A stretch of DNA of 64,000 nucleotides from Nemertoderma westbladi (lineage: Eukaryota; Animalia; Xenacoelomorpha): the NCBI GenBank assembly GCA_032718475.1, contig JAUCBJ010006611.1, positions 2,669 to 66,668 on the forward strand, given 5' to 3'. How positions within the stretch are numbered: the first letter of the stretch is position 1; each line of letters starts with the position of its first letter. Of the stretch, positions 17,699 through 45,752 are shown in pieces. The position numbers and the translations under genes are program-made. The notes beneath the pieces were generated by a model. It was not told the origin of the DNA and did no database searches. It saw nothing but the letters and a program-made list of their open reading frames with translations.

Positions 17699-18742
17699 CC
17701 GGTTTTGGTTTATTAGTTTAACAAGCCCCAGTGCCGGATTAAGCCTCTGGTGGCCCTAAGGCGCATTTTAGTAATTTCCTAAAATGGTCCGAAAATTGAT
17801 ATTTTTCCGCAAACCCTTTCAAAAGAAAACGCTGCTAAAAACAACTGACATTGTGAAAATGTTGCGAAGGAAATATAAAGTATTTTCGTTGGATGACTGC
17901 GTGCAAATACTGAAATAACTTGCAAATACTGCAAGTACTAAGTACTTTAATAATAAGTACTTTGCAAAAATAGTTTTTATCAACAACATTACGTAACATT
18001 ACTAAACGGAATATTATGCTATGCCTATAAAACCTTTGCTATAAAAAGACATTAACGCCCAGAAATAGTCTCTTTAGTAGATATCTAAATATTATTAGAG
18101 TCTTACACCCCACAAACTACAGAAAATATAGAATAAAGACATTAATGCCCAGAAATAGTCTCTTTAGTAGACCGGTTTTGGTTTATTAGTTTAACAAGCC
18201 CCAGTGCCGGATTAAGCCTCTGGTGGCCCTAAGGCGCATTTTAGTAATTTCCTAAAATGGTCCGAAAATTGATATTTTTCCGCAAACCCTTTCAAAAGAA
18301 AACGCTGCTAAAAACAACTGAAATTGTGAAAATGTTGCGAAGGAAATATAAAGTATTTTCGTTGGATGACTGCGTGCAAATACTGAAATAACTTGCAAAT
18401 ACTGCAAGTACTACGTACTTTAATAATAAGTACTTTGCAAAAATAGTTTTTATCAACAACATTACGTAACATTACTAAACGGAATATTATGCTATGCCTA
18501 TAAAACCTTTGCTATAAAAAGACATTAACGCCCAGAAATAGTCTCTTTAGTAGATATCTAAATATTATTAGAGTCTTACACCCCACAAACTACAGAAAAT
18601 ATAGAATAAAGACATTAATGCCCAGAAATAGTCTCTTTAGTAGACCGGTTTTGGTTTATTAGTTTAACAAGCCCCAGTGCCGGATTAAGCCTCTGGTGGC
18701 CCTAAGGCGCATTTTAGTAATTTCCTAAAATGGTCCGAAAAT
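17572..18742. repeat. 473-bp tandem units; the third copy is split by the LTR element and resumes at 37108-37363
   Basis: accggttttggtttattag recurs at 17698, 18171 and 18644. Confidence 0.9.
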
Positions 18743-19935
18743 TGTAAAAGCTTTTGCGGATATACTCAGTCCCCCTCGCCCGCAAGGTACCGTTATAGGT
18801 GTTTTAACGGACATAAAAGTGATTCTTCTATATACGTGCTTTGGCGGACATGGTAAGGCAAAAAACCCGCAATGCACCAAATACCCTGGCACAGCTTAGC
18901 CTTGATGATTCAGATTACGACATCTAACAGCTGGTTGCTGACATGGAAACGGCCATTGGACACATGGTTCTTTGTTTAGCTTAACAGCCAATCAGAGCGA
19001 TTTTTTCTGTCGATGTGGAGATATTTTGGCAGATCATGCTAGGAGTGTTCAGTCTTACTTTTTTTTCTTGATACTGTTGTGTTGTTTCTATCTAGGCCAG
19101 GAACACCGGCTCTAGAGTCAATTCGTTTCAGACTTTAGAAGAAACATTAGTAGGCTTAAGATTATAGAGCGTATAACTGTTAACATAACAACTCGGCTCA
19201 ATCGGCACATACATTGTCATATCATATCTTAACCTACCGTCTTAATGCTTTTACTGTTGTTATTATTTTGTATCAGTTGGTTGAATATTATTTGGAGAAC
19301 ATCTATAAAGAACCCAAATTTCCCAATTTTCTTGATACACTACAGGTTAGAGAGACAGGTTACATATAGCGATTGCGACTTATATTATTGTGGTTTGTAG
19401 TGAATTTAATGCTATTTGATAAGCACTACATGAGTCAGTTGCTGTTCTCTTTATATATGATAAAATTCATTGACGGTCGGCAAATTAGTGAGCAGTATTG
19501 TGTGTTACCGGTAGTGTGCATGATTGTGACTGATAACTAAGCATTTCCTAAAGAATGCGCCGCATACGTGAATCATAAGCCTTACCGACTTACCGTTGTG
19601 ATTAGTATAAGTCATATCTCTATTTACCTAGATAGAGCGCCACGTCCTAAAGGAACTGTTAATATTTCCCGAAAGTGAATAATATTGGTCAGAAATTATT
19701 TATTAACGATCAATCGAATAATACAGTAAGCTTACACTGCAATAATAATCTAAGCCCTCAGAATCCAGTCTCCCGGGTATATCCAGCGGGTGAATGGACG
19801 CGCACTAGGCTGGCTTCTGCTAATGTTGTGTTTATTGGTATTAAATATTTGTCAATTTCTAAAGTCTATTTATAAACCAAAAGACATATAAATTTTGGCA
19901 GGTTAAACTGCTAAAGGTCTTCAAAAGCGTGTACA
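18743..19935 (+). repeat. 5' LTR (1193 bp)
   Basis: TGTAAAAG...GTACA; about 8 substitutions versus the 3' LTR, counted by eye. Confidence 0.96.
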
Positions 19936-22170
19936 ATAACAGTTATTGTCTTTATTGCAGTAAGCAATAAAGTTGAAAGTACCGGTCGACCGGTAAACCT
20001 GAACCGGTACTTCTGTAGGTCAGTAGGTCCAACTGCCAGAACCGGTACTGCTGTAGGTCCGTAGGTCCAACTGCCAGAACCGGTACTTCTGTAGGTCCGT
20101 AGGCCCAACTGTCCTAACCGGTACTTCCAGTATAAGTACATTAGTATTATTCGATTTGATTATTGTATACCGGTAGGTCTCGATATTAAATCGGGGACGC
20201 CTGGTTTTTATTGGGATTTTACTTAGGTCTATTTCTGTCAGTTTTATTTCCTAGTAAGTTAATATTGAGCTGAAGACGTGTAAGTCTGCTCAGATTGTTC
20301 AGATAACTGTAGGCCGGACTGTTGTCGGATTGTTGTTGGGTTTGGAGAGATTGCGGCGTGTGTAGAGTTTGTCCGATAGAGTGCCAGTTAGTAAGTTGGG
20401 GCAGCCATAGCTGTAAGGTCAATCCCCTCTTAAAGAATAAGTCGTACTACCGTGTTAGAACGCATACTAACTAACCATTTTGGAATCTGCACATACTGTA
20501 GTTTATTTAGGCTTGACAGTATTCTGCCAACGTTTTGGCCTGTGTTTGTTTGTGTGGTCTGTTCAGGTACCGTAATAGTTATTACTCAGATATTTTGTAG
20601 GCTGGATTGTTGTCTAGCTATTATTAGGTCTGAAGAGATTGCTGCGTGTGTAGAGTTTGTCTGATAAAGTGCCAGTTAGTAAGTTGGGGCAGCCATAGCT
20701 GTAAGGTCAATCCCCTCTTAAAGAATAAGTCGTACTACCGTGTTAGAACGCATACTAACTAACCATTTCGGAATCTACACGTACGGTAGTTTATTTAGGC
20801 TTGGTGGTAGTCTGTCAGCGTTTGGTTTGTATTTTGTTTGAGTATTCTGTACGGGTAGCGTAATATTTATTATTCAGAGTTTATGCGATTATTCGCAACA
20901 TTCATGTCCCCAAGTTTATTCCTACAGTAATTGTGCTTGTTACACATACCGTTATAGTTAAATTAACCCCGGTACTACACGGGCTGCTTGGCGTAGGAAA
21001 AGACTGGTGACTTTGTGCTTCGGTCACTCCAGCAGATGCCGTGGTTCTTTTAACTGTTCAAGTATATTTAACTACTGATTATTTGTTGTACCAGTACTTG
21101 TACCTAATTTAGGGTTTAGTGTACAGTGCTTTCCGAAAGTAATTAGTGTGTAGGCAGTATATTTGTGTTGTAAAGTGGTTAATAGGCACGTTGGATCTGG
21201 TAGTCCGCGGTAATTAACTTCCAGGTAGGAACACTCCGTGATACATAACGTAGTACCTATAGCGATACGGCTATAGGTCGTCAGGCGGTGGTATTTTCCT
21301 ATCTGGACAGTGCAATATATTTACTACTACTTATTATTTTCAAATACCGTAGTACCCTGTCCGTCGTAATAACCAGAAATCTAACCATTTGTTAGACTGG
21401 TTGGTAGACTTCCTGTAAAATTACCCTAAAATTTCGTACGTAATATTTTTGTTGTGTTTAATTAGAGATTTAATCTCACCCGTATCGTAAGTAATTTGTA
21501 GTATTAAGTAACTTAGGTAAATTAGAATAATCTGTTTTAGTGTCCCATAAGTAGCACTCCACTGAGAGCGTACAGCTTCTGTGTAGTGACTCCCCCAGAA
21601 ATAATAACATTTATTTCAAATATTGACAAAACCCCTTTTAAACGGGTATATAAATATTATAAATCAACTCAAACGATTTATAAATAGTAGGCCTGCCATA
21701 CAACAACTAGGTCTTAATATCAGTTGGACTACTGCTTAAATAACGGTAACAAAGTAAGTTAAAGTAACCAAGTAACCCTAAAATATTCAGAAATTCAATT
21801 ATTCTAAAATAATTGACATACCGGTATTTACCATAGGCTTATTATATTTATTTCTATAAATTTGAGCTGAAATCATACCGGTATTCTGTAATTAATTCTA
21901 GTTCATAATTATACTTATATATACTATAAGTGTAAGCTGTATACCGGTATTCACGATAGGCCTATTATATATTTATATATATTTGTGCTAAATTTATATA
22001 CCGGTACTCTGTGACAAAACTAGTTTACAATACTTATATATATTATAAGTGTATACCGGTATTCTAATATACTGCAATAAATTACCGGTACTAGGCCAAC
22101 GGTCATACTGAATTAATAGACTTGCTTTAACTGTAACTATAGCTGTAGACATTCAACTGTATAGCTAAAC

Positions 22171-25100
22171 ATGTCTGACACCCAGCAAAACCTGTCAGAC
22201 AGTCTAATCGATACAACCATCTGTGACACAGATAGGAGTGTGGAGCGATTAAGAAAGGAGTTCAGCTCACCTCCTACTGAAAGAAAGGTCATCCCTCCAG
22301 TAGTAGTATCCGACCCTAAGCTAATCCAACACCGTAGGTCTATCATCGGCACTCTGGCCCAAGTCAAACGGAACCAGGAAGCAGCTGTCCAACAGCAGCA
22401 ACATCCTAGTCAAGAAACTTGTTCCCAGCGATCAGATAGCTCCAGTAGTTCGGATACTGTAGAGCTGACCCCCGAACGCGGATTGCAGATGGCGGCTACA
22501 GCCTACTCGGATCCCCTTCTCACCCTTCCTGCCGCAGTACTAACTACTATATTGATTGCGGTGGAGGAACATCAAGCCGATTGGGCGAGAAGTAAAAGAG
22601 TGACCCAAGATAATTATGCGGGATACGCCAGGGAAGAATTGGTGTCTATTGTCGAGTCACAATGGAACTTTCCCGGACCCGGACTCCCGTTAGATTTGTC
22701 CGAAGCTACTTGGGAAGATATACACAGGATGGGAGTGGCTAAAGATACGATGGATCCAGCTGTTTGGAAGAGGTCGGCAGCAGGATATTGTGCAGGGATT
22801 CTTCGGCTCCTTAGAGCAATTGGAAGAACAATTGTTTCGACAACCCCAAGGACCTCAAGAGCAGGAGGAGCTGCTTTATCAAGTACGCGAAAGAACCCTA
22901 CGTATTAGACTAATCCTATCAGCCTTTGAGGAAACTTCCAAAAGAAGACAGGACACGTCGCTGCAGGTCACTGTCAAGACTTGGTTCCAGCGGGTAGGTC
23001 TCAAAGTGCAAGAAACGGCCCAGTGGAAATCCCAGCTGGCTGAGAGACCAACCTATGAAGAACCAACCGATGCCACCCTTTCTCAAATGGAAAGCGAAGA
23101 AACACCAGCAGAGAAGCCGCCCTCGAGAGACGCCATAGACATCTATCTGTCAGACTATCAACGATTCCTAGGAGACGAAGAGTTGAGGAGACGACTGTCG
23201 GGACTTCGCCCTAATAGTGAAGGAACCAAGCTTGTGTTGGACGCAATCGATGCGGAAATGTTAGCTGCAAACCAAGCTGAATTTGATGAAAAACTCCGCC
23301 TCACTAGAGTCCAAGAAGAACAAGTAAAGAAAAAACGGATAGAGGACCGAAAGGCAGCAGCAGTAACGGCGGCAGAAGCAGAAGCAGCAAAGGCAGCAGC
23401 AGAAGCAGCAAAGGCAGCGGCAGCAGCAGAAGCAGAAAGAAAGGCAGCGGTGGCAGAAGCAGAACTGAGAGCGTCTGAGGAGACTACCCAACTAGAGTTG
23501 GAAAATCTGCAAGAGACGCAAGACAACATAAATAAACAGTTAACTGCTAGTCACATGCAGATGATGAGAAGATCTACTCCCAAACGCCAGGGATATACAT
23601 CATCGGAGGAAAGCGAAACCACCGATCCTGAAGGCGGAGGAAATAGATCTCGTCTAAGCAGGCGTAGAAAAACATCTTACCGTCACAAATTGCCTGATTT
23701 GCCCCCAGCTGTTAGAAGACAACTAGCTAGCACAGACTTAAGTAGTATAGAACCTACAGACCAAATTATTAAGGTCAAAAAACTCCCTACTATAGTTGAT
23801 GAGCCTGAAATAATTAGGCCTGTCGTTCCCAAAGTCACTCCTGTGCTAGAGACCCCTGTACTTCCAGAGCTTAACTCTAAATTCCCTTTACACAGTACTA
23901 CACTGCCTGTACCCGGTAGAACAGTCCATGAGAATATCCCTGTCCTGGAAGCTGAGAGAGAAATCAAAGATTTGTCTCCTGTCGTCCCGCGTCAGCCCGC
24001 TACAATGTTGGCGACTCCCGCTTCGGCGGTCGAGTGGGTAGAGGAGGGACGGCGGGGGATGAATCTCCTGCTCGGACAGATGCAGGAGACTGTCCACCAA
24101 CTTAAGGGAACCGTAAGGGAAGGTAGGGCAGAATTGCAAGAAGTGCAGCAAAGTATCGCGCTAGAACGCGACAAATTAGTCAATATACAAAATGGTATAC
24201 CAATACCCCCTGTAAAATTGTGTCAACCTGTTAGGTCTGAAGTATTACATGCGCAAGGTGTGGAGCCTACACGCATCTATACTGCTAGTGAAGTAGAAAC
24301 TCCTATAGCAAACCCTATTAAGGGTGATTATAGACCTGTTGTTAATGATATTCCCTATAGACCTGATAATGATCCAAGAAATTTATATACCGATAATTCG
24401 ATATTAAATAACACGATGGCCCAAGAAAGCTTTACGCGTCAGATGGCTAGAACAGAAGCCCGCCAAGCGGTCAAAGTGGGAGAGATCGTCAAATTCAATG
24501 GAGATGAGATGAAATGGTTACCTTTCAACGAATATTACAAAGACAGCATACAGAACTCTGTGCTATCTAACGGAGAGAAACTTAGGTTCCTCATCAAGTG
24601 CTTGGAAGGACCTCCCAAGTTAATGGCGTTAAAGTTTATTGGACATCCAGAAGGATTAAGACAAGTTTGGGATACATTAAACATCAGGTATGGTAACAAG
24701 GATAACATAGCTAAGTATTTGTATGCAAAATTAGTAGCCCCCCGAAACTTCCTTAGTAGCGGGATTATAGAGTTTTCCGATGAGATTCAAGAGATCTGTA
24801 GACAATTGGACTGGTTAGGTAAGTCTCATGAATATCAGAGTTCCATGGTTATTGGAGCAGTAGTCTCTACTTTACCAAAGGGTGGAGTATGTACGCGCTG
24901 GGACAAGAAAGTGTTGTATATGAATGAACAGCAACGACGAAGCCCTACCATGGCTGATCTCATGTCCTTCTTAGATGGTGAAGTAAAACTACAACTCATC
25001 AAGCAGTCCAGAGAAAAAACATCGGAAAATAAGGTAAGTGAGAAACCCGCTTCTAGGAGAAGAGTAACACCGGTGTGTTACACTGACGACGGCGAAAGCC

Positions 25101-26614
25101 AAGCTTCTCAAGACGAGGACAGCGGGAAAGACACTGATCGATCTTACTACGTTGACAAAACCTCAAAAGACGTAAGTAAATACAAGGCTCGAAACAACGA
25201 TAGGAGAGAACAGGTTGCCAAGACCCCTCCTCAGTCTCCTAACAGAATGCACCGAAGAAAGCCCGAAGAAAGAACGAGAGTGCATCAGGTTACCCAAGGT
25301 AAAGTGAGTAACATAAAACCTAACTGTGCGCTGTGCGACGGGACCCACCGTTTGAGTGCGTGTGCTGAATTTCTAAAGAAATCCCTTGTGGACAGACGTG
25401 CAGTCGTGTGGGATAAGCGGTTATGCTATAATTGCCTCAGACCAGGACACCAACGGCGAACCTGTTACTCCGACGTAAGGTGTGCAAAGTGTAGCGCGAA
25501 ACATCACATCTTGTTACACAGTGAGTTCGAACGAGACAACCCGAGTCAGGTAAGTGAGCCCGAACTACATGTCCAATTCAGTGATGTAAATGACACTGAT
25601 CAAGAATCTGAGATGGAAGGATTCTATACTGACGAATTTTCCGACGCCAACGAATCCTGTTATCTAATCAATACCGCAGTGTATCGAGCACTTACTTATG
25701 AAAAGGACACCAACAATGAGTTTCCCCCAACTACGTTTGCCAGACAACCATCTTGGAAAGCTCCAACTTCCAACGTAGGAATCAGAGAATTTCCTGTAGT
25801 GCAGGTAAGAGTTCACAGTCCTAACAAAAGTTACATAGTGAACGCACTCCTTGACTCCGGCAGCACAGGAACATTCATCGATCAAGAACTAGCCGAAGAT
25901 ATCTTTGCTGGACAACCCAAATTCCGGACTAAATTGAATATGTCAGGAATTATGCAGGTTTGGAAATCTACCCTAACGGCAGATTACTATGTAGGTGTGT
26001 TGTCCACCCCCCAGGATAAATTAGGAGCACAAGGTATAAGGTCGGTAAAAATGGTGGCTATAAAGAACTTCGCTTCTACTCAAGCAGACCTTTATAATTG
26101 GGACGAGGATGAGAGCATCCAACATCTTAAGATACCTCGATTCCAGACAGATTATCCTGGAGTGCAAATACTCATCGGCCAGAACGCGCATGAGGCGCTC
26201 GAGACATTGGAGAAACGGCCTGCTCAACCGCAGCCACTGCAAACCTATGCGGTAAGAACTAGAGTAGGTTGGTACTTTACTGGCCCTTCCCGCAAAACTC
26301 TCGAAGAGAGAATGCCACAAGAACGAATATACCAAGTAAACGATTGGGAAGTGGAGAGCAGTGAGGTGGACGAACTAACTGAGGTAACACCATACTCCTC
26401 AGATAATGACGACATCTACCAACTCTTCGATGAAGAGAACACAATCGACCTACTTACAGAAAACAAAACTTGGAAAAATCAGGTGAACCTATGTCAATTG
26501 ATTCGCCCATCGGAACCCATTGACTACAATGACGAACTAAATGATGAGATAGAGCGCTGCAACGCTAGAACTCGGGACGAACTCGCCGACGATTCTTTAC
26601 TCAAGAACTGGTAG
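22171..26614 (+). CDS. Bel/Pao Gag-protease (frameshift near 22790)
   Basis: KFNGDEMKW...EKLRFLIKCLEG (DUF1759-like); three knuckles CALCDGTHRLSAC / CYNCLRPGHQRRTC / CAKCSAKHHILLH; aspartic protease ALLDSGS. Confidence 0.88.
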
Positions 26615-29600
26615 AGCCCAATTCATATGATAAGGCCCTATCGATAGAAGAAGAAAGAGCCAAGCAAATCCAGGAAACAACTACACGTTTTTTAAAGGAC
26701 CAAGGTAGATATGAAATCGGCCTACCATTTCGAAAACGAGAACCTAGATTTATAAATAACAGACCCTTGGCAGAGAAAAGAATCGCTCAATTGCATCGAT
26801 GCCTTACGGCTAATGCTTCAGCTAAAGAAATGTACCAAACTCAGCTGAAGAAATTTATAACAAAGGGATACGCGGAGCGAGTACCGGAAGGAACACCAGT
26901 AACTGAGAGAACGTATTACTTAACACATCATTACGTTCCCAAACCCGGTAAACCCCATGAAGTACGAGTCGTATTCGATGGCTCTGCTCTATATATGGGC
27001 CAATCCCTCAATTCCGAGTTGTTACCAGGACCCAACTTACTCCAATCTTTGTTGGGAATACTTTTGAGATTAAGACAATATTCCATCGCGTTTGCCTCCG
27101 ATATAGAAGGAATGTTCTTACAAGTCAAGGCGCTGGATAGAGATAGAGACAGTCTGAGATTTCTGTGGTGGCCTGAAGGAGACCTCAACCATAAACCAGT
27201 AGAGTACTGGATGACCATCCAGGCTTTTGGGATCATATCTAGCCCTTCCAACGCCTGCTCCGTGGTGCGAACCACTGCGAATGACAACCGAGACGCCTTC
27301 TCCAAAGAGGTGATAGACAACATCAAACGTAATATATACATGGACGACAATTTAAGGTCCCTTCCATCAGTAGAAGAAGCCATAGATGTCGCGAAAGGAA
27401 CGGTTGAGTGTTTGAAAAGAGGTGGATTTCGACTGACGAAATTCACTAGCAACTCCCGTGAGTTTCTGGAAGCGATACCGGTAGAAGACCGAGGAACGAA
27501 AGACCTAGACTTAATAAAGGACGATCTTCCAGAAACCAAGACGCTTGGCTTGAAGTGGGACACTGAAAGAGACATCCTGTTTTTTCAGTTAAAACAGCGA
27601 GATAATCCAGTTCGGACCAAACGGATTTGTTTAAGTATCCTGAGCACTTATTTCGACCCATTGGGATTTATTAGCCCAGTTATATTGATTGCTCGGAGTT
27701 TAGTACAACAAATGTGGCTTGAAAACCACTCATGGGACGATCCGCTTAAGGGAGAACTGTTAAAGAAATGGATGAGATGGGAAGATTCTCTACCTGCCAT
27801 CGAGAACTTTATAATTTCCCGTGCATATTTTGGTCATGTTCTTCCTACGCTTTACTCGTGTTGGAGTATCTAACCAATGAAGTCTGTCAGTTCAGCGTTT
27901 TTGTTACTAACAGGGTAGCTATTATTCTTAGTCGCACAAAGATAGATCAATGGAGACATTGTCCTGGTACGATTAATCCAGCCGATATCGCCTCCAGGGG
28001 AGCAACTCCACAGGAACTGATAGATACTCCAGATTGGTTGGGTGGACCCGACTTCCTGAGCAAGGAAGAAGATGAATGGCCTCCTCACCTTACTACGGCG
28101 GAGATTAGACAAGCCAAGGGAGCGGAGACAATCAAACCTAAAACCCGGGCGAGTAAATCGAAGTTATTTAAACCGACAATCGATCTATCTGTATTACATA
28201 CTTCCGAAAATGATGCTTCGGATCCACAATCCCTCGCCACAAATAAGTCTGTTGTGGAAATTAGAGATAGAGATTGGAAATCTGGAATACCAGACGTCTC
28301 GCAAGGAATCTCACCCCTGCTGCAGAGAGCAATGCATCACTACAGTTCCTGGAATCGGCTCTGTAAAGCCGTCACATATTTAAGGAGATGTTTTCATCAT
28401 CACTACTCCAGGACGAAGACCATTAGTGATACCGCTCCATTGCCATCTGCGCAAGTTCATGTTATTAAAAATTTACCCAAATATAAAACATCCGACAGGT
28501 TTCTAAAGGAGAAAATTAGTCACCAGGAGCATGAAGAAACCAATAAGCAGATACTGAGACTCCTGCAATGCTATGAGGATTCCGAAAAGTATTTCCTGTT
28601 GCTGAGAAATCCGCAGATGCGCTTAAGGGATCGATTCTCTAGTACAATGATAGATGGGTTAATACGTGTTGGAGGAAGGCTCACCAATGCGCCATTATCC
28701 TTTGACACTAAATTCCCCATACTCATTAGAAATCTTGAAATCTTGACAAATCAAGATGATTGTAGATGTTCACAGCAAACTTTATCATGCTGGTAGAGAA
28801 CGAGTTCTTAGCGAAATCCGAACTCGCTATTATTTTTATAAACCCCGTAGAGCTCTGAACCAAGTTCTTAGGGACTGCATACCCTGTAGGAAAGCATTAC
28901 ACAGCGAGAGGCAGAATTACCTAGGGAAAGAGTAAGCTTCTATGAACCACCTTTTACTAATACTGGTGTAGATTTATTTGGCCCTATTGAAGTATATCGT
29001 GCTAGGACTATAGTCAAGAGATGGTGTGTCATCTTCGTGTGCATGACTTGTAGAGCCATCCATCTCGATATGGTGAATGATCTATCTACCAACAGCTTCG
29101 TCTTAAGTTTACGCCGACAGATCGCTCGCTTCGGGACGAGTAATACCATGAGATCGGATAAGGGAACGAACTTCATTGGTGCCAACAACGAAATACAGGC
29201 TTACGTGAAGGACTGGAACCAAAGACAGGTGGACGATCAGCTAAGGATAACAGCGTCTAGCTGGACCTTCAACGCCGCCGACGCCCCTTGGTGGGGAGGA
29301 AGTTGGGAGAGATTAATTAGAAGTGTCAAGACCGCATTTCACTTTATAGTGCCATGCCGCGCGTATCTCACCGACGAACTTTTGCGGACGTTAATGGAGG
29401 AAATAGCTGCCTATCTCAACGAGAGACCGCTTATGCCTGGAATTTCCGATTCCCTGGAAGCGCTAACACCCGCGCACTTCCTACTGAAGAAACCTGTAGC
29501 CATGCTCCCACGATCGGAGATTGCCGACGGAGACGAATACTGCTGTCGAACTTGGCAACTTATGCAGTTGCTATCCCGTCGCTTCGCTGACCATTTCGAG

Positions 29601-29963
29601 AAACATTATCTGCCCACGCTACAACTTCGAACTAAGTGGTTTGCGCAGCAAGAAAACGTCAGCGCCGGAGATATGGTGCTTATTGTAGATTCAGACCTCC
29701 CACGTAAACGGTGGCAGACAGGTCGTATCATCGAGACCCACATCTCGGATGATGGTTTAGTACGCTCGGTAGAACTCGTCGTCTTGCGGCGTAACTTCAA
29801 GAAGCCAGGTATAATCTTTGAGACGCAACAACTCAACCGCCCAGTTGGTCGTTTATGTCTACTGGAAAGAGACAGAGAACTCTCCGGAAACTATGGAAGG
29901 CAAGACACTCTTCCCACGACCACCTCCCTAATTCCTCAAACATCTAGGGACTCCCCAACGTGA
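26611..29963 (+). pseudogene. Bel/Pao RT-RNase H-integrase, frameshifted, part of RNase H apparently deleted
   Basis: RVVFDGSA, SDIEGMF, YMDD, FDPLG, WRHCPGTINPAD, RVGGRL, HAG..C..C, GVDLFGP, SDKGTNF, GGSWERLI, RPVGRLCLLE, spread over several frames. Confidence 0.92.
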
Positions 29964-31582
29964 TACGTCTGGAGTGGGTGTATGACTATATTATTTTATC
30001 TATTTTATTATATTTTATATGTGAACATTATTATGTACTTTATTATAATCGTTTTTATTTAATTTTATTTAGTAGAAGGTTATTTTAGATTATTTGGTAG
30101 ATTAGTGCAATAAATTAGTGTTTATTACGTAATTACATATATATAATATATATTTAGTGTGACGGCGAGAAAAATTTTTTCTCTTTCCTTACTGTCCGTA
30201 TCATATTATAAATACGTGACTACAGTAAGATGAAATGTCCGTACTTATTAAAGTACAATAAAGCCCCTACTATATTTAAGTATTATTGGTAGGCAGAGTA
30301 TTAGGAATGCAAAGTTCAGATCCTCGTGTCTCGGCTAAACCAAGCTCTGGGTAGACCTTGGAAACGACTTGCCTCTTCACACTGACATTGCTTCGTGCGA
30401 TATTGCTCTTCTACCTTATATTAAATAATACATATAGTAGCGTGATGTCCCTCTAACAGTAGCGTAAAACGCAAATAAATCTGTTAAACCTTTTGACCAT
30501 CTGTAATTCTAGTCGATTAAGATATCGCGGCACCCACCGATATACTTGAAAGACAAATTCTAGAATCAGTGGTTAACGTCCCCAGACAAGTTCTGGAATA
30601 AATCGGTGCCCATCTTAAATATTAATTTAATATTTATTAAAATCTGTAAAATTCAGATCCTTTAAATTTCTAGTCAATTAAGATATCGCAGCACTTACCG
30701 ATACTCTTAAAAGACAATTTTCATAGAATTAAGGATCCTATGTCCCCAGACCTGCTCTGGAATCAAATTGTGTCAATTTTAACATCAAATAATAAAATTC
30801 ACGGGAATAAATTTAAATTCATATTTTAAATGAATTTCATAAATTGTCGTTTTGTGCAATTTATAACATTCCCAAAATTCCATTAATTAATAGATCATGG
30901 GAGCGGAGATTCATCCTATTGAGTGTATTAGAGTGCGAGAATCTCCAACATATAGTCAATAGCCGATAAAATTAATAAAATCATGCATAAAGAGGATATT
31001 GACAATTAAAGAATTACTATTAAATAGCATTCCAGATCTGTATGCATGAGAATTACCCTAATTCTACCGCTAGCATTCCATAATGTCACCATAGCAACAC
31101 CCACGCTAAAATTAGAAGCAAGTTAAGAGAATAATAGAAAGCTTGTCACATTGCATAGCATAGAGAATACATAGCACACTGTTAGTATCCAAGGATACAC
31201 AGTAACAACGTGACATTCTGGAAGGCACTGACTAACGGACAAATGGCCTGTATGTGTACAATTGGTGACAGTTGTGTGGAATTTGTGCGTTTATAGGTGA
31301 ATGTTACTGCTAAAGTATGTTTACAGTAGCTAGTCGCAATTGTAAAAGTAGCCCAACTCTCCTATAGAAAGAACCTAAGTGGATCCAAGCCTTTGGGACG
31401 GACAGTGGAGTGACTTGTGCCGGTTATCGTTGTCGTGCTGTTGCTACATGTTGGCGTAAACACCGCGACGATGGTACATCGGCGCTGAGAATCCCACTGT
31501 CCGGGGGCAAAGAGAAGTAGGCAGCGACGCCCGCTCGCCTAAATATAAACTCATTTGATATTAATAAACTCAGATAGCAGAT

Positions 31583-34500
31583 ATGACGGAGTTGATAGAA
31601 GATGATCTTGGCATTAGGGAGCGATATACTCTACCTTTGCAAGCATTTGTGGATAGCTTAATGCGTGGTGAAGCCGATCCAACCATTATGGAGGACGATG
31701 GTCGTTATATCGAACCGCCGATGTCCTAAGAGCAACTTGCGCGTGAATTGGATTATCGAAAATTCACCACTCGCTATACGAATCGTAATGGTACGTATAT
31801 GGACTTCTTAACTACCGGCCATCCTATCGATTTACATGATACGGACGATGTAGATACAGAGAGGGAAATGGTTCTGTTTAAATATCATACCCAGCGGAGT
31901 CGTAACGATAAACCGAGAATAGATCACGAAAATTCTATTCGTAATAGACTAGAAAGAGAAAACATTGAAGAACCGGATAAATGCATCGACTTCAACGAAT
32001 ACCTAGAATTTTTTAGAGAAACCTATCTCAACATCGCCAGTCAGCAGAACCTAGAGACTCGATATCCTCAAGGTATACATCATGACCCTGTGGTAGAACT
32101 CAAACGGCTCTATTTCACTATGATGTATCTTACCGCCGATCGTCCACTACCTGTTATCCCGGATAGTTTTGAACAAATGGAAGAATACTGCAAAACTGGA
32201 GAACGATCACCCGCGTTTCCTCTGCAGGACGTACGTCTTTGGTATTATTGTGACGAATGCCCTAGACCCAACCAACAAACTGAAAGACACAAACATCCGC
32301 GGAGACGTTGCGCTAAACACAGCTTTACGCGTTATACTTACGGGAGTTTCGAGCGAAACCTGTTCGACGTATCACCTACGATCGCTCGTCTTAAACGATC
32401 ACTGAATAAACCCATGATCAGAGTTCCGGAATACTCGGTCAGGCCTCCTCATTCCCTAGTGAGACCTCAAACTCTTGATCCTAACAGTATCACTGATCCT
32501 CCCGAACTATATTCCCTGTTCAAAGACTTAGTGTTACCCGAACAATTAATCGGTGGTGCTCCGGTAGTGGGTTCGTTAGACATTCGCCCATCCTACTTAG
32601 CCGGATTGGGACGCGGGCAGCTAATATCGCCCTTTGATCCTTACAATCGTCCAGGATTAAACCCGATGCAACCCGCCACGGAAGTCGAGGAGAGCGTTAT
32701 AAGAAACGCTTTAGACGCTATTCGACAGAAGATCGGAAAGGGAACACAAGATTGTTTAGAGAAACGTAAATTACAACAACAAGTTCAATCGGTGAAGGAG
32801 TTAGCCTTGCCACAGTTCGATAGAGAAATCCAAAACCTCGAGGAAGACATCGAGCTTGGACGCACGTATTCTCTACAAGAATTTTTAGATGAACGCTTAC
32901 AGAGACAAGCGGAAGAAAATCTACTCGAGGAGAAACACACGAAACTGGAAGAGAGAGAAGAAGCCGCTTTAGCCCAACCTGAAGCTCAAATCCTTATGAC
33001 GGACCTCTACTCTCGAACCATTCGTCATCCCTCGATGATTCCACATTTCGGAGACAAACTCTTCGCGACGATACAACCTCAACCGGTTGATATCAGTACA
33101 GGATCGCAAAATCTTATCGCTGACGCCCCTATGTTACAGCGTCCGCCAATCGAGGCCGCTCGTGTTGACGGTATACTCGTTGAACCTCCGGACAATCGAG
33201 CGGATCTTGTCCGTCGTATGGTACACGATGTCAACATACGCGCTAGACCTTTACAGAACTCGTTTTATGGGATTAAAGACCACCCTTATTACGTTAATCT
33301 GACTCAATATTATATGGTAAAACCAGAAGACCCGACGCATAATTTAAAGTTTCTACCACTAATAAATCCTCTAGACATTGTCGAACTCGAACAATTGCAG
33401 AAACATCTGGATCAGTTAGTAAAAGTAAACTCATTTAGAAAACCATATAACATTTCTAGAATCGAGAAAGATATAGAACCCCCTTATAATCTCGATGGAT
33501 TTATTAAAACTCGATTAGTCCATTGGAATCTAGATGTATTATTTGAAGAAGAGAAAATACAAAGATACGGAAATTTGGAGACGTATACCACTCGGCACAT
33601 GAAGTATAGTGATCTCCCTGACGCTAACCAATGCGCCACCTTGTGGCATCCAGTAGGGATGACCCTAGAGAACGCCACCAAGGAGTGGAATGAAACTCTT
33701 AATGTTATTGAGATGTATGGAGTTGTCACCTACGATAATGAAGGTAGCGTTCCGGTCGGAGAACTAGGAACTACGCGCATGATCCACATACGCGGATTAG
33801 CTGGTTCTACCCATGTGTTTACTCGAGCGTGTTCCGACGTGATTGATTATTCCTTTGAAACTCTCACTGAAACACAAAAGAATCTCCGACATGGACAATT
33901 CGAACTCGCGCAGCGTTACGTCATTGACACCGAACGCAAACCGGCCATGGGTATCGATGGAGCGATGTTACCCCAGCCCGTACTCGAGATGTTGTTCAAC
34001 GAAAGAATCCTTAAAATCGGCTCAGCTGTTTATGGAGATCTCCAAAACGACTTTCGGAATATGGAGAACATTCCATACCCTTTCGTTGATACTCAGCTGA
34101 TTGCTCCCTGGGCAGAAGGTCGAGGTTTCTTCCGCACCATGTATGCTAATACGTCTAGCAACATTACAAAGGTGCAACGAACTTCCATCGGACATCTTGC
34201 CTTTCAGGAATACGGATGGAATTTCAAAGTCGGAAATCCCATTAACTATCAACAAGTATACGGAGACCATTATTCTCGATTATACTTTGATGGACCATTG
34301 ACCGCACCTGGCGCCGTGTATAGCTTCATGAGTGTTCCACTCCGTCCCTCCTTAGCTATATACACGATCTTTGAAAACACCGCACTTGCCGGTTGGCTAG
34401 CCGATGTGTGCAGTCGTACTATACGCGCCCATCCATTAATACTTGGGACCAAACTCGCTAAGCTAGATGAACATAATAAATTCATCCGCTTCGAATGTTT

Positions 34501-35836
34501 CCGGCGATTTTTAACCCCGTTCCGCAATGTGGATAGCCAATTTAAAGACCGCGCTTTGACCAAGCTCAGCCTAAGAAACTCAGCTGCAGAGAAGTTGGAT
34601 AGCGCTGGATTCGCCATTTTCCAAGAGATTTGTATATCGAACTTGCACTCCTCTGTTATACAAAGACCTCGAATCCCCACAGGTTATTCTGTCGTGGAAA
34701 TTCAGACAATAGGTCCACCTGAAGAGACAGACACGCCCACCTCAGCTATGCACTTAGAAGACGAACCAATATGTCTAGAATCTGAGGAGATTCAGCCTAT
34801 CGCGCCCCGGAACAGCGACAACGATTACATCATAGAATGGTATCAAGGTCCACAGTGTCTCACTGCGTATGATTATCGACATGTCAACTATGTTTCTAGG
34901 CAACGTTGTCGGTTATGCGCATCGAGAGACCATGATACACCCATGGACACAAACCTCCGCTGTTCCTATTTCCAAGAACAACCGACTATGGAAATTTATT
35001 GCGCATATTGCAGACTCAATAACTTGCATATTTTTGCGGTTTGCCCTCAATTTATGACTCAATGTCACCATTGTCAACAAAAGGGACACGCCAGTTTCGA
35101 TTGCCCTTTTAATCACGATTTGGAAAGCGTAGATGAAATGATCACACTATGTTACATCAGAGCTTGGGAAGCGAACGCTGATTTACATTGTGATTCGCGC
35201 CATCGCTATTATCCCGGACGCGCTTACGAAGGAGTTTATGCATTCCATCCTTATCTATTCGCTTCGGTCGAACAGAAATCACGCATATCGAGTTACGAGC
35301 TACTGAAGAGCGTCGGAGAATGTATTTCAACCAAATTTGTACGCAAATTTCTCAGGAGTGTTAATCCTAGCGACCTTCATTCCTATAACTTAATCAATTA
35401 CATCCGTCAGGATCCGGACTATGGAGACTTATTTGTTAACTCACACCCCGAGTTACAGGAAGTATATCGACGGCCTTACGAATACCGAGCCCGCGAACGC
35501 GAGTTGGAAAGAACTATTAAACCCCGGAGGTTTCTAACTGCCTATGGTCCATCCACGGCCCTCGTTCAGACCACTCGTAAAGGACCCGTAAGAGCGGCTG
35601 TCTTAAAACGAACTCTCAAAGCCATTAGACCCCTCTCCCCCGACGTTGATGTCAATCAACCCGGTACTTCGACTGGCGGATACACCGACCATAATCCTAC
35701 ACCCTCTGATGCAATCATATTGCACCCTTCACCCAGGAGTTATAGCCCTCCTTGTAAAGTGGCTCGCCCCAAAGAGAAAAGGACTCTGGCTAGCTTTAAA
35801 AAACTGCGTAAATGCTGTCCGCGCAAGAAAGACTAA
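31583..35836 (+). CDS. Extra ORF of the Bel/Pao element: coiled coil + DEDDy/WRN-like 3'-5' exonuclease-like domain + three zinc knuckles (one in-frame stop at 31727)
   Basis: ATG 31583 is in frame with the 1362-codon ORF; VVTYDNEG, LPQPVLEMLFNERILKIGSAVYGDL, FVDTQLIA, SIGHLA...FK, YTIFE; C-terminal CX2CX4HX4C. Confidence 0.75.
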
Positions 35837-35906
35837 CTGTTTAGAGTATTTACATATATTAGAAACTGTGATTTTTGTATATTTATAAACTTGAATCCCA
35901 TTTTCT

Positions 35907-35914
35907 GGGAGCGG
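35907..35914 (+). other. Polypurine-tract-like sequence
   Basis: GGGAGCGG immediately before the TG of the 3' LTR. Confidence 0.65.
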
Positions 35915-37107
35915 TGTAAAAGCTTTTGCGGATATACTCAGTCCCCCTCGCCCGCAAGGTACCGTTATAGGTGTTTTAACGGACATAAAAGTCATTCTTC
36001 TATATACGTGCTTTGGCGGACATGGTAAGGCAAAAAACCCGCAATGCACCAAATACCCTGGCACAGCTTAGCCTTGATGATTCAGATTACGACATCTAAC
36101 AGCTGGTTGCTGACATGGAAACGGCCATTGGACACATGGTTCTTTGTTTAGCTTAACAGCCAATAAGAGCGATTTTTTCTGTCGATGTGGAGATATTTTG
36201 GCAGATCATGCTAGGAGTGTTCAGTCTTACTTTTTTTTCTTGATACTGTTGTGTTGTTTCTATCTAGGCCAGGAACACCGGTTCTAGAGTCAATTCGTTT
36301 CAGACTTTAGAAGAAACATTAGTAGGCTTAAGATTATAGAGCGTATAACTGTTAACATAACAACTCGGCTCAATCGGCACATACATTGTCATATCATATC
36401 TTAACCTACCGTCTTAATGCTTTTACTGTTGTTATTATTTTGTATCAGTTGGTTGAATATTATTTGGAGAACATCTATAAAGAACCCAAATTTCCCAATT
36501 TTCTTGATACACTACAGGTTAGAGAGACAGGTTACATATAGCGATTGCGACTTATATTATTGTGGTTTGTAGTGAATTTAATGCTATTTGATAAGCACTA
36601 CATGAGTCAGTTGCTGTTCTCTTAATATATGATAAAATTCATTGACGGTCGGCAAATTAGTGAGCAGTATTGTGTGTTACCGGTAGTGTGCATGATTGTG
36701 ACTGATAACTAAGCATTTCCTAAAGAATGCGCCTCATACGTGAATCATAAGCCTTACCGACTTACCGTTGTGATTAGTATAAGTAATATCTCTATTTACC
36801 TAGATAGAGCGCCACGTCCTAAAGGAACTGTTAATATTTCCCGAAAGTGAATAATATTGGTCAGAAATTATTTATTAACGATCAATCGAATAATACAGTA
36901 AGCTTACACTGCAATAATAATCTAAGCCCTCAGAATCCAGTCTCCTGGGTATATCCAGCGGGTGAATGGACGCGCACTAGGCTGGCTTCTGCTAATGTTG
37001 TGTTTATTGGTATTAAATATTTGTCAATTTCTAAAGTCTATTTATAAACCAAAAGACATATAAATTTTGGCAGGTTAAACTGCTAAAGGTCTTCAAAAGC
37101 GCGTACA
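35915..37107 (+). repeat. 3' LTR (1193 bp)
   Basis: Direct repeat of 18743-19935. Confidence 0.96.
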
Positions 37108-37484
37108 AAAATTGATATTTTTCCGCAAACCCTTTCAAAAGAAAACGCTGCTAAAAACAACTGAAATTGTGAAAATGTTGCGAAGGAAATATAAAGTATT
37201 TTCGTTGGATGACTGCGTGCAAATACTGAAATAACTTGCAAATACTGCAAGTACTAAGTACTTTAATAATAAGTACTTTGCAAAAATAGTTTTTATCAAC
37301 AACATCACGTAACATTACTAAACGGAATATTATGCTATGTCTATAAAACCTTTGCTATAAAAAGTGTAATGGTTTTGGTAGAATTTCTCACGCTTTAATT
37401 TTTAATATATTAAAGGAACCATTATCACAAATCTATTTATTTTATTTATAAAGTTACTATTCTGAAACTTTAACACAATGATCG

Positions 37485-38850: not shown

Positions 38851-39313
38851 CCATGGAGCCCATTTTGGCACTTTGGATAATTGAAGAATTATCAAAAAAG
38901 AAAGACAGGCCTGGCTGTTATCTTTGTTGACTTCTTCAAGGCCTTTGATTCAGTCTCTCGCTCACGTATGTTCAGCATACTTTTATTATATGGGATTCCT
39001 GATGAAATCATTGCAGCAATCAGATCAGTATACGATGGTTCGACAACATTTGTGTCTACTGTTGACGGTGACACAGAACCATTTGAAGTGTTATGGGGCG
39101 TCCTCCAAGGAGACACACTTGCACCATTCTTGTTCATTATTGTGGTTGACTATGTTCTACGCATGTCCTTAGATCATTATAATGATGATGGGGTGATGAT
39201 AACTCCACCTACTGGCTCCAGAAGTCGAGGAAATCATGCCAAGTACCTAACCGATCTAGACTTTGCTGATGACTTAGGAGTACTCTCACAATCATTAGAG
39301 GGAGCCCAACGGC
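38851..39313 (+). pseudogene. RTE-like LINE RT, 5' portion (interrupted by the Polinton)
   Basis: FVDFFKAFDSV, GVLQGDTLAPFLF, LDFADD. Confidence 0.9.
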
Positions 39314-39511
39314 AGTAGTAGAAGAAACATAGACCTCAGCGTACTCCTCCCTAGCTTGGGCTATGGGCTAGATCTCGGAGGGCTATTAAAAATGCCAAAT
39401 TTCGGTGCTAAATTGCAGTGTTTAATGACCATCTGTCACCACCAGTATTGATTCGCGTCGTTGCCTTGCCTTCAACCAATCGTTGCGTATTCACCTACGC
39501 GTAGCCTAACC
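39314..39511 (+). repeat. Polinton left TIR (diverged extension to ~39836)
   Basis: Reverse complement of 58103-58300. Confidence 0.95.
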
Positions 39512-40073
39512 ACACGATGCCTGCCTTACTCCGCCATATGTCACCATCAGCAGTTGCCATCAACCAATCGTCGCGTAGCCTAACCTCGCGATGCCCGCCT
39601 TACTCGACTGACTGACTAACCCTAATGTTATTCACCTTTTCGCCACGTTACCACCGCTGCCACGTTACCACCACCACTGTATACTGTATATGGTGACGAC
39701 GTGGCCATCTACACGCATCACGCATATATTATATTATATTGATTGCCAACTCCACGACTGCTGTCGCCAAATCAACAAACCAACCAGTATGATACATGAA
39801 ATTCCGTCACGTTCCAGCTACGCGTATACGAGCATTAGTGATTATTATTATTATTATTACGCAATAATTTTTGTTTATACAGTAGTTCCCTACCGGCTAA
39901 TCAACCAATCAATAAACCGAATTTAGGCTATTTCTCAGTTTAAGACCAGTATTATTTTTGAAAATATCTTATATATATAATCTCTTGCTTTAATCACAAT
40001 TAATCATTTGTAATGGTTTTAGTTTAAAAGTTTTTACTTTGTTTGTTTGATTTACAATAAAATAAATTAAATA

Positions 40074-40517
40074 ATGTCTTCTGATTCCGATATGGTTATG
40101 CCAATAGTAAGGCATTCATTTTTTGCAGAAGATGGTGAAGCCTATATTGTTATTGATTATACAATTTACCGTCGGGGAGATGATACATATAAAATTGAGT
40201 TTTCTGAAAAAGCCAGGAAAGTTTTAAGCTCAATTGATATTGATGCTTCTGATAATAGTATTCATCTCTTAGATTACAACCTGAAAGTTGAGCATGAGGG
40301 AAAATTAATCAACATCTTACTATTATCCATGATAGAGGGGTTTATTGTTATTACACAATACAACGAAGCTGGTGAAAAGTTTGAAATACGGCTAAATCGG
40401 TATAGCCCCTACGAAATTATGTCTTTCTTTATTGTAATGATTTCAAAAGAATCCTTTGTCGAACCTGAAGAATCAACAGATAATGTTGAATATGTTGATA
40501 ATATCATTGATTCTTGA
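40074..40517 (+). CDS. Polinton hypothetical protein (147 aa, acidic)
   Basis: Clean ATG-stop ORF in AT-rich context; no recognised motif. Confidence 0.6.
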   Translation: MSSDSDMVMPIVRHSFFAEDGEAYIVIDYTIYRRGDDTYKIEFSEKARKVLSSIDIDASDNSIHLLDYNLKVEHEGKLINILLLSMIEGFIVITQYNEAGEKFEIRLNRYSPYEIMSFFIVMISKESFVEPEESTDNVEYVDNIIDS

Positions 40518-40703
40518 CTTTTCCCTCTATATTATAAATATTTTATGATTATTTATAAAATTTTGATGTTTTTAATTATGAAAAAACATCAAATTTTAAA
40601 TAATCGAAAATTGTAGTAGTAATTGCATATACAGTATAACAGATTTGTTTGTTGTTGTTGTGTATTGAGGTAATTATTTTCAATTTACTTTAAAATTTGG
40701 AAA

Positions 40704-41156: not shown

Positions 41157-41384
41157 AATTACATTGAAAATGAGTCTATACTATAATTGGAAATAGCACC
41201 TTTTGTTGCAGCGAGCGTCACATACTGTAGTTGTGTCATATGTTAATTAAATATACAGTACTCTAATATTGTAGTTGCATCAATTATTGTTATATACATA
41301 GTAATGGTGATGGTTTATTGATATTGATATTGATATTATATTATATTATATTGTATTGTTGATATATCTTAATAATAATAATAA

Positions 41385-42059: not shown

Positions 42060-42096
42060 TTAATATTTTGTAACAATTTTCAATAATGTTGCAACA

Positions 42097-42480: not shown

Positions 42481-42482
42481 TA

Positions 42483-42653: not shown

Positions 42654-42703
42654 GATTTGAATAAGAGATTTGAATATACATATTACTTGCGGTTGTCGAA
42701 AAG

Positions 42704-45751: not shown

Positions 45752-45752
45752 A

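What the first reader, a model, noticed from the sequence alone, without database searches (positions are those of the whole stretch)
31583..35836. Bel/Pao retrotransposon with a giant extra ORF: DEDDy-like exonuclease plus triple zinc knuckle
Seen: ~1417 codons between integrase and the 3' LTR, with only one stop (31727). Motifs fall in ExoI/II/III order (YDNEG ~33731; ILKIGSAVYGD ~34007-34039; FVDTQ ~34082; YTIFE ~34361). They are followed by CX2CX4HX9C, CX2CX5HX4C and CX2CX4HX4C (34907-35104), with an N-terminal Cys/His cluster and coiled coil. No signal peptide or TM segment is evident, so it is not env-like. Established: this pattern is typical of the WRN/EXD/MUT-7/Nibbler RNase D-like family, some of which act in small-RNA pathways. 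From memory, DEDDy ORFs have been reported in rotifer retroelements; I know of no Bel/Pao case. Inference: a candidate anti-silencing or cDNA/RNA-processing module.
Basis: partly seen in the sequence, partly recalled or inferred. Interest (0 to 1): 0.88.

Follow-up and report, generated by a model that had tools for sequence, protein, structure and literature searches.

The report
Giant Bel/Pao retrotransposon carrying exonuclease gene
An 18-kb jumping gene of the Bel/Pao type, about twice the size described for this family, carries a large third gene that selection keeps intact across its many copies and that contains a predicted RNA-trimming nuclease domain with zinc knuckles, which likely trims RNA ends for the element's own copying cycle, a kind of cargo we found in print only for rotifer elements of other groups.

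Summary
A recent 18,365-bp Bel/Pao element (1,193-bp LTRs with 8 mismatches, 5-bp target duplication) has a 1,417-codon third gene between integrase and 3' LTR. Its one internal stop is private to this copy: about 98-100% of laid depth differs there in 4 of 4 runs. The gene is family-wide and under strong purifying selection (exonuclease region: 28 synonymous, 3 non-synonymous variants; about 35% synonymous expected). The ExoII core is homologous to RNase D (NCBIfam E 0.0019; 24 of the 30 best bacterial hits are RNase D; language-model neighbours are PF01612). One distant relative (29% identity) has the same order, exonuclease then three knuckles, and the same altered last motif (YxxxE where DEDDy enzymes have YxxxD). 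Not shown: the fold (both models weak), the ExoI register (preferred, not significant), catalysis, expression, function. Best reading: a trans-acting 3'-5' exonuclease that trims RNA ends in the element's particle; rivals are a non-cutting RNA adaptor or an anti-silencing nuclease. DEDDy third genes are known from rotifer Juno/Vesta and Terminons; ten literature searches found no Bel/Pao case. New variant of a known kind.

The parts
18738..18742 (.). 5-bp target-site duplication, left copy (right copy 37108-37112)
   Evidence: identical 5-mers flank both LTRs; the element interrupts the third copy of a 473-bp tandem unit
18743..19935 (+). 5' LTR, 1,193 bp, TG...CA
   Evidence: 8 mismatches to the 3' LTR
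19936..22164 (+). 2.2-kb leader with short tandem duplications; no canonical TGG-starting primer-binding site next to the LTR
   Evidence: first TGG is 266 nt downstream; repeats of 38, 288 and 123 bp
22165..26614 (+). gag-protease region in two overlapping open pieces (DUF1759, Gag zinc knuckles, aspartic protease)
26569..29963 (+). pol: reverse transcriptase, RNase H (Peptidase_A17), integrase (DUF5641), in three open pieces in this copy (frame changes near 26.6 and 27.8 kb, closed frame at 28.8-28.9 kb)
29964..31582 (+). 1.6-kb AT-rich non-coding spacer before the third gene
   Evidence: GC 0.35 without codon-position pattern; covered in all four laid runs
31583..35836 (+). third gene (ORF3), 1,417 codons; one stop at 31727 private to this copy
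   Evidence: GC by codon position 0.54/0.39/0.42, as in gag 0.55/0.40/0.43
32249..32320 (+). N-terminal Cys/His cluster in a region with no family match
   Evidence: sequence; no Pfam match for 31730-33000 or 32999-33700
33680..34420 (+). RNase D/WRN-like 3'-5' exonuclease domain; candidate site D718 (33734), E720 (33740), D819 (34037), Y927 (34361), E931 (34373)
   Evidence: 28 synonymous and 3 non-synonymous variants; ExoI register preferred, not significant
34907..35104 (+). three CCHC-type zinc knuckles
   Evidence: similar triple array after the exonuclease in P0001 (2 of 2000 shuffles score as high)
35900..35914 (+). short purine-rich tract directly before the 3' LTR (likely plus-strand primer site)
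   Evidence: sequence
35915..37107 (+). 3' LTR, beginning 79 nt after the ORF3 stop codon

Best explanation
The ORF is a selected, family-wide third gene of an 18-kb Bel/Pao retrotransposon, and its product likely works as a zinc-knuckle-guided 3'-5' exonuclease of the RNase D/WRN type that would trim RNA 3' ends (genomic RNA or primer RNA) in the element's own particle. Shown: the gene lies inside paired LTRs on the gag-pol strand, is shared by the family, is under purifying selection, and its central domain is homologous to RNase D around ExoII. Inferred: it is made from a separate message (a 1.6-kb spacer parts it from pol); the three knuckles bind single-stranded RNA and hold the enzyme on the particle; D718, E720, D819 and E931 bind two metal ions and Y927 orients the water, as D108, E110, D171, Y242 and D246 do in EXD2; it can act in trans, since copies that lack the nuclease domain exist. 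The N-terminal 700 residues have no assignable job and are guessed to be a scaffold.
For: Element anatomy. Stop private to this copy: other letter at 98.8%, 97.7%, 100% and 100% of depth in runs X1, X3, X4, X5 (63, 31, 1, 8 contigs). Exonuclease region in run X1: all 31 listed variants at 20% share or more give 28 synonymous and 3 non-synonymous against 35% synonymous expected (binomial p 3e-10, ratio about 0.06); none falls in the five candidate catalytic codons; no indel listed. Whole ORF: 22 synonymous, 10 non-synonymous among 32 of the best-supported rows (p 4e-5, ratio about 0.23). Homology: NCBIfam RNase D E 0.0019; ESM neighbours PF01612 at 0.92, 10 of the ten best family hits agreeing; best hit lies in the RNase D gene in 2 of 2 genomes; 24 of the 30 best loci among 301 genomes are RNase D; a profile built from RNase D genes not chosen by this query ranks ORF3 first of 213 window ORF pieces (9.9 bits, next 1.8; 0 of 1000 shuffles as high). 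P0001 keeps acidic residues at all four places and shares the ExoIII stretch (score 83, best of 2000 shuffles 45). Rotifer DEDDy ORF3s were proposed to process retroelement RNA 3' ends (PMC5408684). The element has no canonical tRNA primer site, so it may need an unusual primer.
Against: No activity, expression or localisation data; no RNA holder on record. Pfam gives no exonuclease hit for the window protein, and three sequence searches of solved structures with the window domain or its alignment found no nuclease. Only about 47-62 residues around ExoII align significantly with RNase D. The ExoI register is not significant (1516 of 3000 shuffles score as high), and automatic alignments put RNase D's DTE on IDYSF instead, which would remove the ExoI Glu. 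The fourth acidic residue is Glu, not Asp. The YDNEG register needs an insertion of about 33 residues in the domain. Both structure models are poor (pLDDT 27 and 50). A deletion form lacking the nuclease is in 3 of 4 runs, which fits action in trans but also a dispensable gene. Purifying selection shows that the protein matters, not that it cuts.
Confidence: 0.4

Rival explanations
1. The exonuclease fold is kept for binding, not cutting: with the knuckles and the charged helical region the protein works as an RNA adaptor that carries or packages the element's RNA, as Egalitarian or EXD1 do with their exonuclease-like domains.
For: Glu in place of the last Asp, uncertain ExoI register, large insertions. 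Egalitarian-BicD-RNA complexes, one with I-factor RNA, are among the weak Foldseek rows (E 0.7 and worse). Inactive DEDD derivatives that keep RNA binding are named in PMC5408684. Two earlier scan notes report dead DEDDh domains in other LTR elements (not tested). That Egalitarian needs no catalysis is recalled, not from a call.
Against: Acidic residues and the Tyr are kept at all five places in both this protein and P0001 at about 29% identity; dead domains usually lose them.
Confidence: 0.25
2. The protein is an active nuclease aimed at host defence: it trims or degrades piRNAs/siRNAs or their precursors, or competes with host trimming enzymes such as Nibbler or MUT-7, and so shields the family from silencing.
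For: The domain belongs to the group that holds EXD2, WRN, MUT-7 and Nibbler (the small-RNA roles of the last two are recalled, and MUT-7 is mentioned in PMC5408684). The family is very abundant (29,892 contigs laid in X1). Action in trans fits.
Against: No small-RNA data. Suppressors in conflict with the host often evolve fast (general knowledge), whereas this domain is strongly conserved. In rotifers DEDDy ORF3 did not clearly track copy number (PMC5408684).
Confidence: 0.2
3. The nuclease works on DNA: it proofreads or trims cDNA ends during reverse transcription of an unusually long genome, or shapes the ends before integration.
For: DEDDy enzymes include WRN, EXD2 and polymerase proofreading domains; the nearest ESM clusters are largely phage 3'-5' exonucleases. 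The element is 18.4 kb against 4.2-10 kb for the family (PMC8742986).
Against: The best sequence matches are RNase D, though those searches covered bacteria only; family copies are 80-99% alike, which gives no hint of unusual fidelity.
Confidence: 0.12
4. The ORF is a passenger: a recently captured host gene or a nested unrelated element that drifts without function for the retrotransposon.
For: No listed contig spans pol to ORF3 to LTR in another copy, so linkage in other copies is inferred, not seen. The surroundings of P0001 could not be read.
Against: Strong synonymous excess among copies; no direct or inverted 11-mer repeat between the ORF's two edges, same strand as gag-pol, same codon-position GC, intron-free, ends 79 nt before the LTR; 30 of 30 bins from integrase to LTR covered in 4 of 4 runs; no close cellular homolog among 1.84 billion representatives.
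Confidence: 0.03

Closest known systems
DEDDy (RNase D-like) ORF3 of bdelloid rotifer LTR retrotransposons Juno and Vesta, and of Terminons (PMC5408684, parts 1-3 of 5 read; PMC6431247, passages)
   Same: Separate non-env third gene behind pol, RNase D-like 3'-5' exonuclease with one Asp changed to Glu, no transmembrane segment, function untested.
   Different: Carrier here is Bel/Pao by Pfam markers; the rotifer LTR clades named are Juno, Vesta, TelKA and Mag. The change is at the fourth acidic position (DEDE) and not the third (DEED). The gene is 1,417 codons with three C-terminal knuckles and a 700-residue orphan N-terminus. The rotifer paper tested env and GDSL ORF3s and found near-neutral variation within the genome; here purifying selection is strong.
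Belpaoviridae (Bel/Pao; ICTV profile PMC8742986, whole text read)
   Same: LTRs with TG...CA ends, gag with knuckles, PR-RT-RH-IN order, Pao-type Pfam domains, purine tract before the 3' LTR.
   Different: 18.4 kb against 4.2-10 kb; LTR at the upper limit (1.2 kb); the third gene is not env-like; no 18-nt tRNA-type primer site next to the LTR.
Cellular DEDDy exonucleases: RNase D, EXD2, WRN-exo, NrnC, Egalitarian (PF01612; EXD2 site from PMC6648332, passages)
   Same: ExoII core (hhKhGxxhxxD ... hhDTQ) and PLxxxxxxYxxx-acidic ExoIII pattern.
   Different: Below Pfam's cut-off; large insertions; Glu at the last position; no HRDC domain seen; fused to three knuckles.
P0001, unnamed 648-aa protein from an ENA assembly
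   Same: Exonuclease (29% identity over the matched stretches) followed by three knuckles; YxxxE-N-T motif.
   Different: Lacks the long N-terminus; its genomic context (a 9,449-bp contig) could not be read, so it is not known to lie in a Bel/Pao element.

Membership tests
Bel/Pao LTR retrotransposon (Belpaoviridae) | Paired LTRs with TG...CA ends and a target-site duplication | tested here: met
   1,193-bp LTRs, 8 mismatches, 5-bp duplication
Bel/Pao LTR retrotransposon (Belpaoviridae) | gag with knuckles, then PR-RT-RH-IN with Pao-type domains | tested here: met
   DUF1759 E 1.7e-12, Peptidase_A17 E 1.8e-16, DUF5641 E 1.2e-20, in that order
Bel/Pao LTR retrotransposon (Belpaoviridae) | Placement by reverse-transcriptase phylogeny | not tested
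   no reference Bel/Pao sequences could be fetched (empty); subclade unknown
Bel/Pao LTR retrotransposon (Belpaoviridae) | 18-nt primer-binding site for tRNA-Arg or tRNA-Gly after the 5' LTR (ICTV description) | tested here: not met
   no TGG within 266 nt of the LTR end; complementarity to internal tRNA parts was not tested; this is a described trait, and one copy may have lost it
Bel/Pao LTR retrotransposon (Belpaoviridae) | Size 4.2-10 kb; third gene, if any, env-like (ICTV description) | tested here: not met
   18,365 bp; no hydrophobic segment. Departs from the description; the pol markers still place it in the group
DEDDy 3'-5' exonuclease (PF01612; RNase D/WRN/EXD2) | Sequence homology to the family core | tested here: met
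   NCBIfam rnd E 0.0019 over 46 residues, far under its whole-protein cut-off; no Pfam hit for the window protein, P0001 E 0.2
DEDDy 3'-5' exonuclease (PF01612; RNase D/WRN/EXD2) | ExoI DxE at the end of the first strand | tested here: inconclusive
   YDNEG is the best local match to P0001's IDVER but not above shuffles; MAFFT prefers IDYSF
DEDDy 3'-5' exonuclease (PF01612; RNase D/WRN/EXD2) | ExoII Asp | tested here: met
   D819 aligns with the invariant Asp of RNase D and P0001
DEDDy 3'-5' exonuclease (PF01612; RNase D/WRN/EXD2) | ExoIII YxxxD | tested here: not met
   YxxxE in this protein and in P0001; Tyr and an acidic residue are kept, so it may work like the family without matching the strict motif
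DEDDy 3'-5' exonuclease (PF01612; RNase D/WRN/EXD2) | DnaQ/RNase H-like fold | tested here: inconclusive
   models at pLDDT 27 and 50; Foldseek ranks 1-17 are EXD2, NrnC-type, WRN, Egalitarian and RNase D entries but E 0.14 or worse, and the model was built with RNase D rows; best VIA Z 3.6 over 64 residues, rmsd 3.7
DEDDy 3'-5' exonuclease (PF01612; RNase D/WRN/EXD2) | Two-metal 3'-5' exonuclease activity | not testable with these tools
   needs an assay
Rotifer-type DEDDy ORF3 | Separate ORF between pol and 3' LTR with an RNase D-like domain | tested here: met
Rotifer-type DEDDy ORF3 | DEED variant of the motif | tested here: not met
   third position is Asp, fourth is Glu
Rotifer-type DEDDy ORF3 | Common descent with Juno/Vesta/Terminon exonucleases | not testable with these tools
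   no rotifer sequence came up
env-like third gene | Transmembrane anchor or fusion-protein homology | tested here: not met
   highest 19-residue hydropathy 1.21; no env family in Pfam scans

The most novel reading that the evidence does not exclude
This is the first described member of a lineage of giant Bel/Pao elements that encode their own active exonuclease-knuckle enzyme with a DEDE-y site, independent of the rotifer genes, and use it to make or trim a non-canonical primer (the element lacks a tRNA-type primer site and has a 10-nt complement to that position inside its LTR) or to disarm small RNAs; either would be an element-encoded enzymatic step not known in LTR retrotransposon replication.
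Probability: 0.25. Interest if true: 0.85.

Novelty: new variant of a known kind. Interest (0 to 1): 0.62.

Why it matters
LTR retrotransposons are described with gag, pol and sometimes env. A nuclease gene kept under strong selection in a very abundant Bel/Pao family shows that the cargo reported for rotifer elements is not a local oddity and that it has a job the element pays for. It nearly doubles the size range given for Belpaoviridae. Because the family has many copies and the nuclease domain of this copy is unbroken, the open question of what retrotransposon DEDDy genes do (RNA processing, cDNA processing, anti-silencing or binding only) becomes testable with one purified domain and small-RNA data.

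Tried and rejected
No whole genome is held, so copies could not be collected as sequences and dN/dS rests on variant tables. Word-index protein searches found no new relative: 0 of 2600 candidates, 0 of 2846, only the query itself among 7989; each covered a limited length range. Relatives in DNA collections: none in viral contigs, none in prokaryote genomes with the two-row alignment, and one 25-residue match in metagenomes (L001), an unrelated-looking broken gene with an ExoII-like motif, not used. Phage tblastn gave only E 6-10 rows; PHROGs nothing useful. Solved-structure sequence searches found no nuclease; P0001 matched retroviral nucleocapsid knuckles only. The first AlphaFold model (2 rows) failed and was not searched; the second used alignment A3, which is out of register at ExoI and ExoIII, so its fold matches are weak and circular; no DEDDy match reached Z 5. 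Alignments A4 and A5 were tried to get a better register and dropped. The 27.8-bit score uses RNase D genes chosen by this query and is inflated; one search is the fair version. N- and C-terminal RNase D sub-profiles did not place ExoI or ExoIII in the window protein. No RNA holder was listed; run X4 is only guessed to be RNA and was not used as evidence of expression. Depth differences along the ORF were not used to count copies. ORF3 knuckles are not a clear copy of the Gag knuckles (blastp E 0.07). Earlier scan notes: none at this place or sequence, none with all of Bel, Pao, exonuclease, accessory. No complex prediction was run: no partner is claimed.
Full report
Observation. The stretch 31583-35836 translates to 1,417 codons with one internal stop at codon 49, position 31727. 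The 1,368 codons after it are open, which chance does not give (about 1e-33; 70-100 stops in each other frame). There is no transmembrane segment.

The element. Two 1,193-bp LTRs (18743-19935, 35915-37107; TG...CA; 8 mismatches) with a 5-bp target duplication bound an 18,365-bp element, so the insertion is recent. Pfam finds DUF1759, Peptidase_A17 and DUF5641 in gag-pol order, which marks it as Bel/Pao; no RT tree was built. gag-pol is in five open pieces in this copy; whether any frame change is programmed was not tested. ORF3 follows the integrase after a 1.6-kb spacer, on the same strand, and ends 79 nt before the 3' LTR. It has the same codon-position GC as gag, and no direct or inverted 11-mer repeat links its two edges, so it does not look like a nested insertion. 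The ICTV profile (PMC8742986, whole text) gives 4.2-10 kb for the family and names env as the only third gene.

Family-wide and selected. No genome is held, so I used public runs. Seven were listed, four laid on 29900-37200; the best may be the source sample. All 30 bins are covered in 4 of 4 runs, by up to 29,892 short contigs at 80-99% identity; none spans the stretch, so linkage of pol and ORF3 in other copies is inferred, not seen. At the internal stop 97.7-100% of the depth shows another letter in each run, so the stop is private to this copy. Of the 40 best-supported variant rows shown (of 1,638), 33 lie in ORF3; leaving out the stop row, 22 of 32 are synonymous against 33% expected (p 4e-5). 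For 33700-34400 in run X1 the table at 20% share has 31 rows, all shown: 28 synonymous, 3 non-synonymous, 35% expected, p 3e-10, ratio about 0.06; none touches the five candidate catalytic codons and no indel is listed. One site is in both sets, each variant was classed alone, and depth is not a copy count, so these are ratios of variant sites and not a tree-based dN/dS. A deletion that removes the nuclease domain occurs in 3 of 4 runs.

The domain. Pfam gives no exonuclease hit. Among 1.84 billion representatives a single relative was found, P0001 (E 2e-6, 29% identity), a 648-residue protein with the same order of exonuclease and three knuckles and unknown context. Several lines point to the RNase D/WRN group: NCBIfam RNase D E 0.0019 over 46 residues; ESM feature neighbours of PF01612 at 0.92 for the window domain and 0.86 for P0001, a lead only; the two-row profile's best hit is the RNase D gene in 2 of 2 genomes, at E 0.6-0.7; 75 of 301 genomes have a hit at E 0.1, and 24 of the 30 best loci are RNase D, 2 are something else and 4 were read in the wrong frame by my script and stay untested. 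A profile from 80 RNase D genes fetched without this query ranks ORF3 first of 213 window ORF pieces, 9.9 bits against 1.8, with 0 of 1000 shuffles as high. Profile-profile alignment to the query-selected RNase D set gives 95.7% over 62 columns (inflated by selection). The significant part is the ExoII core. ExoIII is placed by P0001 (score 83, best shuffle 45) and by the global profile alignment: both proteins have YxxxE where EXD2 has Tyr242 and Asp246 (PMC6648332, passages). ExoI is the weak point: YDNEG is the best local match to P0001's IDVER and keeps the preceding helix pattern (12 against 0 for the alternative), but 1516 of 3000 shuffles score as well, and MAFFT puts RNase D's DTE on IDYSF, which would lose the Glu. 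Structure prediction did not settle the fold: pLDDT 27 with two rows, 50 with RNase D rows. Foldseek ranks 1-17 are all DEDDy-type entries, EXD2 first, but at E 0.14 or worse; the widest search peaks at Z 3.6 and 3.1 (an exosome chain, recalled to be Rrp6, and EXD2). These are weak and partly circular.

How it most likely works. Shown: a selected third gene with an RNase D-like core and nucleocapsid-like knuckles (P0001's knuckles match retroviral nucleocapsid at E 1e-4). Inferred: a separate message, RNA binding by the knuckles, a two-metal site D718/E720/D819/E931 with Y927, and action in trans. I put 0.4 on an active enzyme that trims RNA 3' ends in the element's own particle, 0.25 on a binding-only adaptor, 0.2 on an anti-silencing nuclease, 0.12 on cDNA processing, 0.03 on a passenger. 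That the gene is a functional, exonuclease-derived accessory gene of the family I put at about 0.9. The missing canonical primer site and the 10-nt complement within the LTR (p about 0.015, after the fact) are a lead towards a role in priming, no more.

Comparison with what is known. Rodriguez et al. 2017 (PMC5408684; parts 1-3 of 5 read, through the discussion; supplement not opened) describe RNase D-like DEDDy ORF3s in rotifer Juno and Vesta and in Terminons, with DEED, untested activity, and state that such exonucleases had not been reported in retrotransposons before. Two reviews repeat this for rotifers only (PMC5718144, PMC6431247; passages). The word exonuclease does not occur in the main text of the Bel/Pao survey PMC3118150, of PMC554778 or of PMC2774666 (word counts and passages); passages of PMC9094657, PMC7084138 and PMC3315495 on nematode elements gave none either. 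Ten full-text searches (listings seen) showed no Bel/Pao element with an exonuclease gene. Limits: most subscription papers, Repbase and GyDB are not searchable, no supplements were read, and Malik et al. 2000 is not held. I recall, without being able to check, that an RNase D-like domain was noted there in some nematode Cer (BEL) elements; if so, a Bel/Pao precedent exists and novelty drops, though not for this env-less, knuckle-fused, 1,417-codon form. Unchecked notes of this scan report Rrp6-like and dead DEDDh third genes in Gypsy elements of other genomes and accessory genes in other Bel/Pao elements, which suggests that nuclease cargo recurs; they are leads, not support.

Verdict. Real, family-wide and strongly selected; exonuclease ancestry well supported for the core, catalysis and job open. 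New variant of a known kind; interest 0.62.

Noticed in passing
window 19936-19946 and 19173-19182: No canonical TGG primer site follows the 5' LTR. The 10 nt at 19937-19946 are complementary to 19173-19182 inside the LTR (43 of 3000 simulated LTRs and 5 of 305 other leader positions do as well; found after the fact). A weak hint of self-priming of the Tf1 type (Tf1 mechanism recalled).
   Followed up: partly
window 31952-34757: A joint that skips 2,804 nt of ORF3 (out of frame, removing the whole nuclease domain) is in contigs of 3 of 4 runs: a deletion derivative of the family.
   Followed up: no
window 39314-58300: Polinton/Maverick-like element: terminal inverted repeats of about 200 bp, P-loop ATPase 41385, integrase 42674, capsid-like ORF 46271 (by eye), adenovirus-type protease 47557, RING protein 40674, polymerase-like ORFs in pieces on the minus strand 51805-55840 (by eye), and a small ORF at 48041 that starts with a nuclease-like hhhhDxQ motif.
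   Followed up: partly
window 11039-12616 (minus): Uninterrupted 525-codon PH plus RhoGAP ORF (RhoGAP E 2.5e-43); single-exon, possibly a retrocopy.
   Followed up: no
window 1621-5494 and 15785-18742: Tandem arrays of 52 bp and 90 bp, and a 473-bp unit in three copies; the Bel/Pao element sits in the third copy.
   Followed up: no
window 38881-39318 and 58482-59213: Two pieces of a non-LTR-type reverse transcriptase gene flank the Polinton-like element (RVT_1 E 6e-10; DUF6451), suggesting that it inserted into a LINE; a related piece lies near 10192-10457.
   Followed up: no
window 60641-60712: tRNA-Met gene.
   Followed up: no
window 22165-26614: The gag region is unusually long (about 1,250 codons before the protease) with an alanine/glutamate-rich repeat at 23350-23465.
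   Followed up: no
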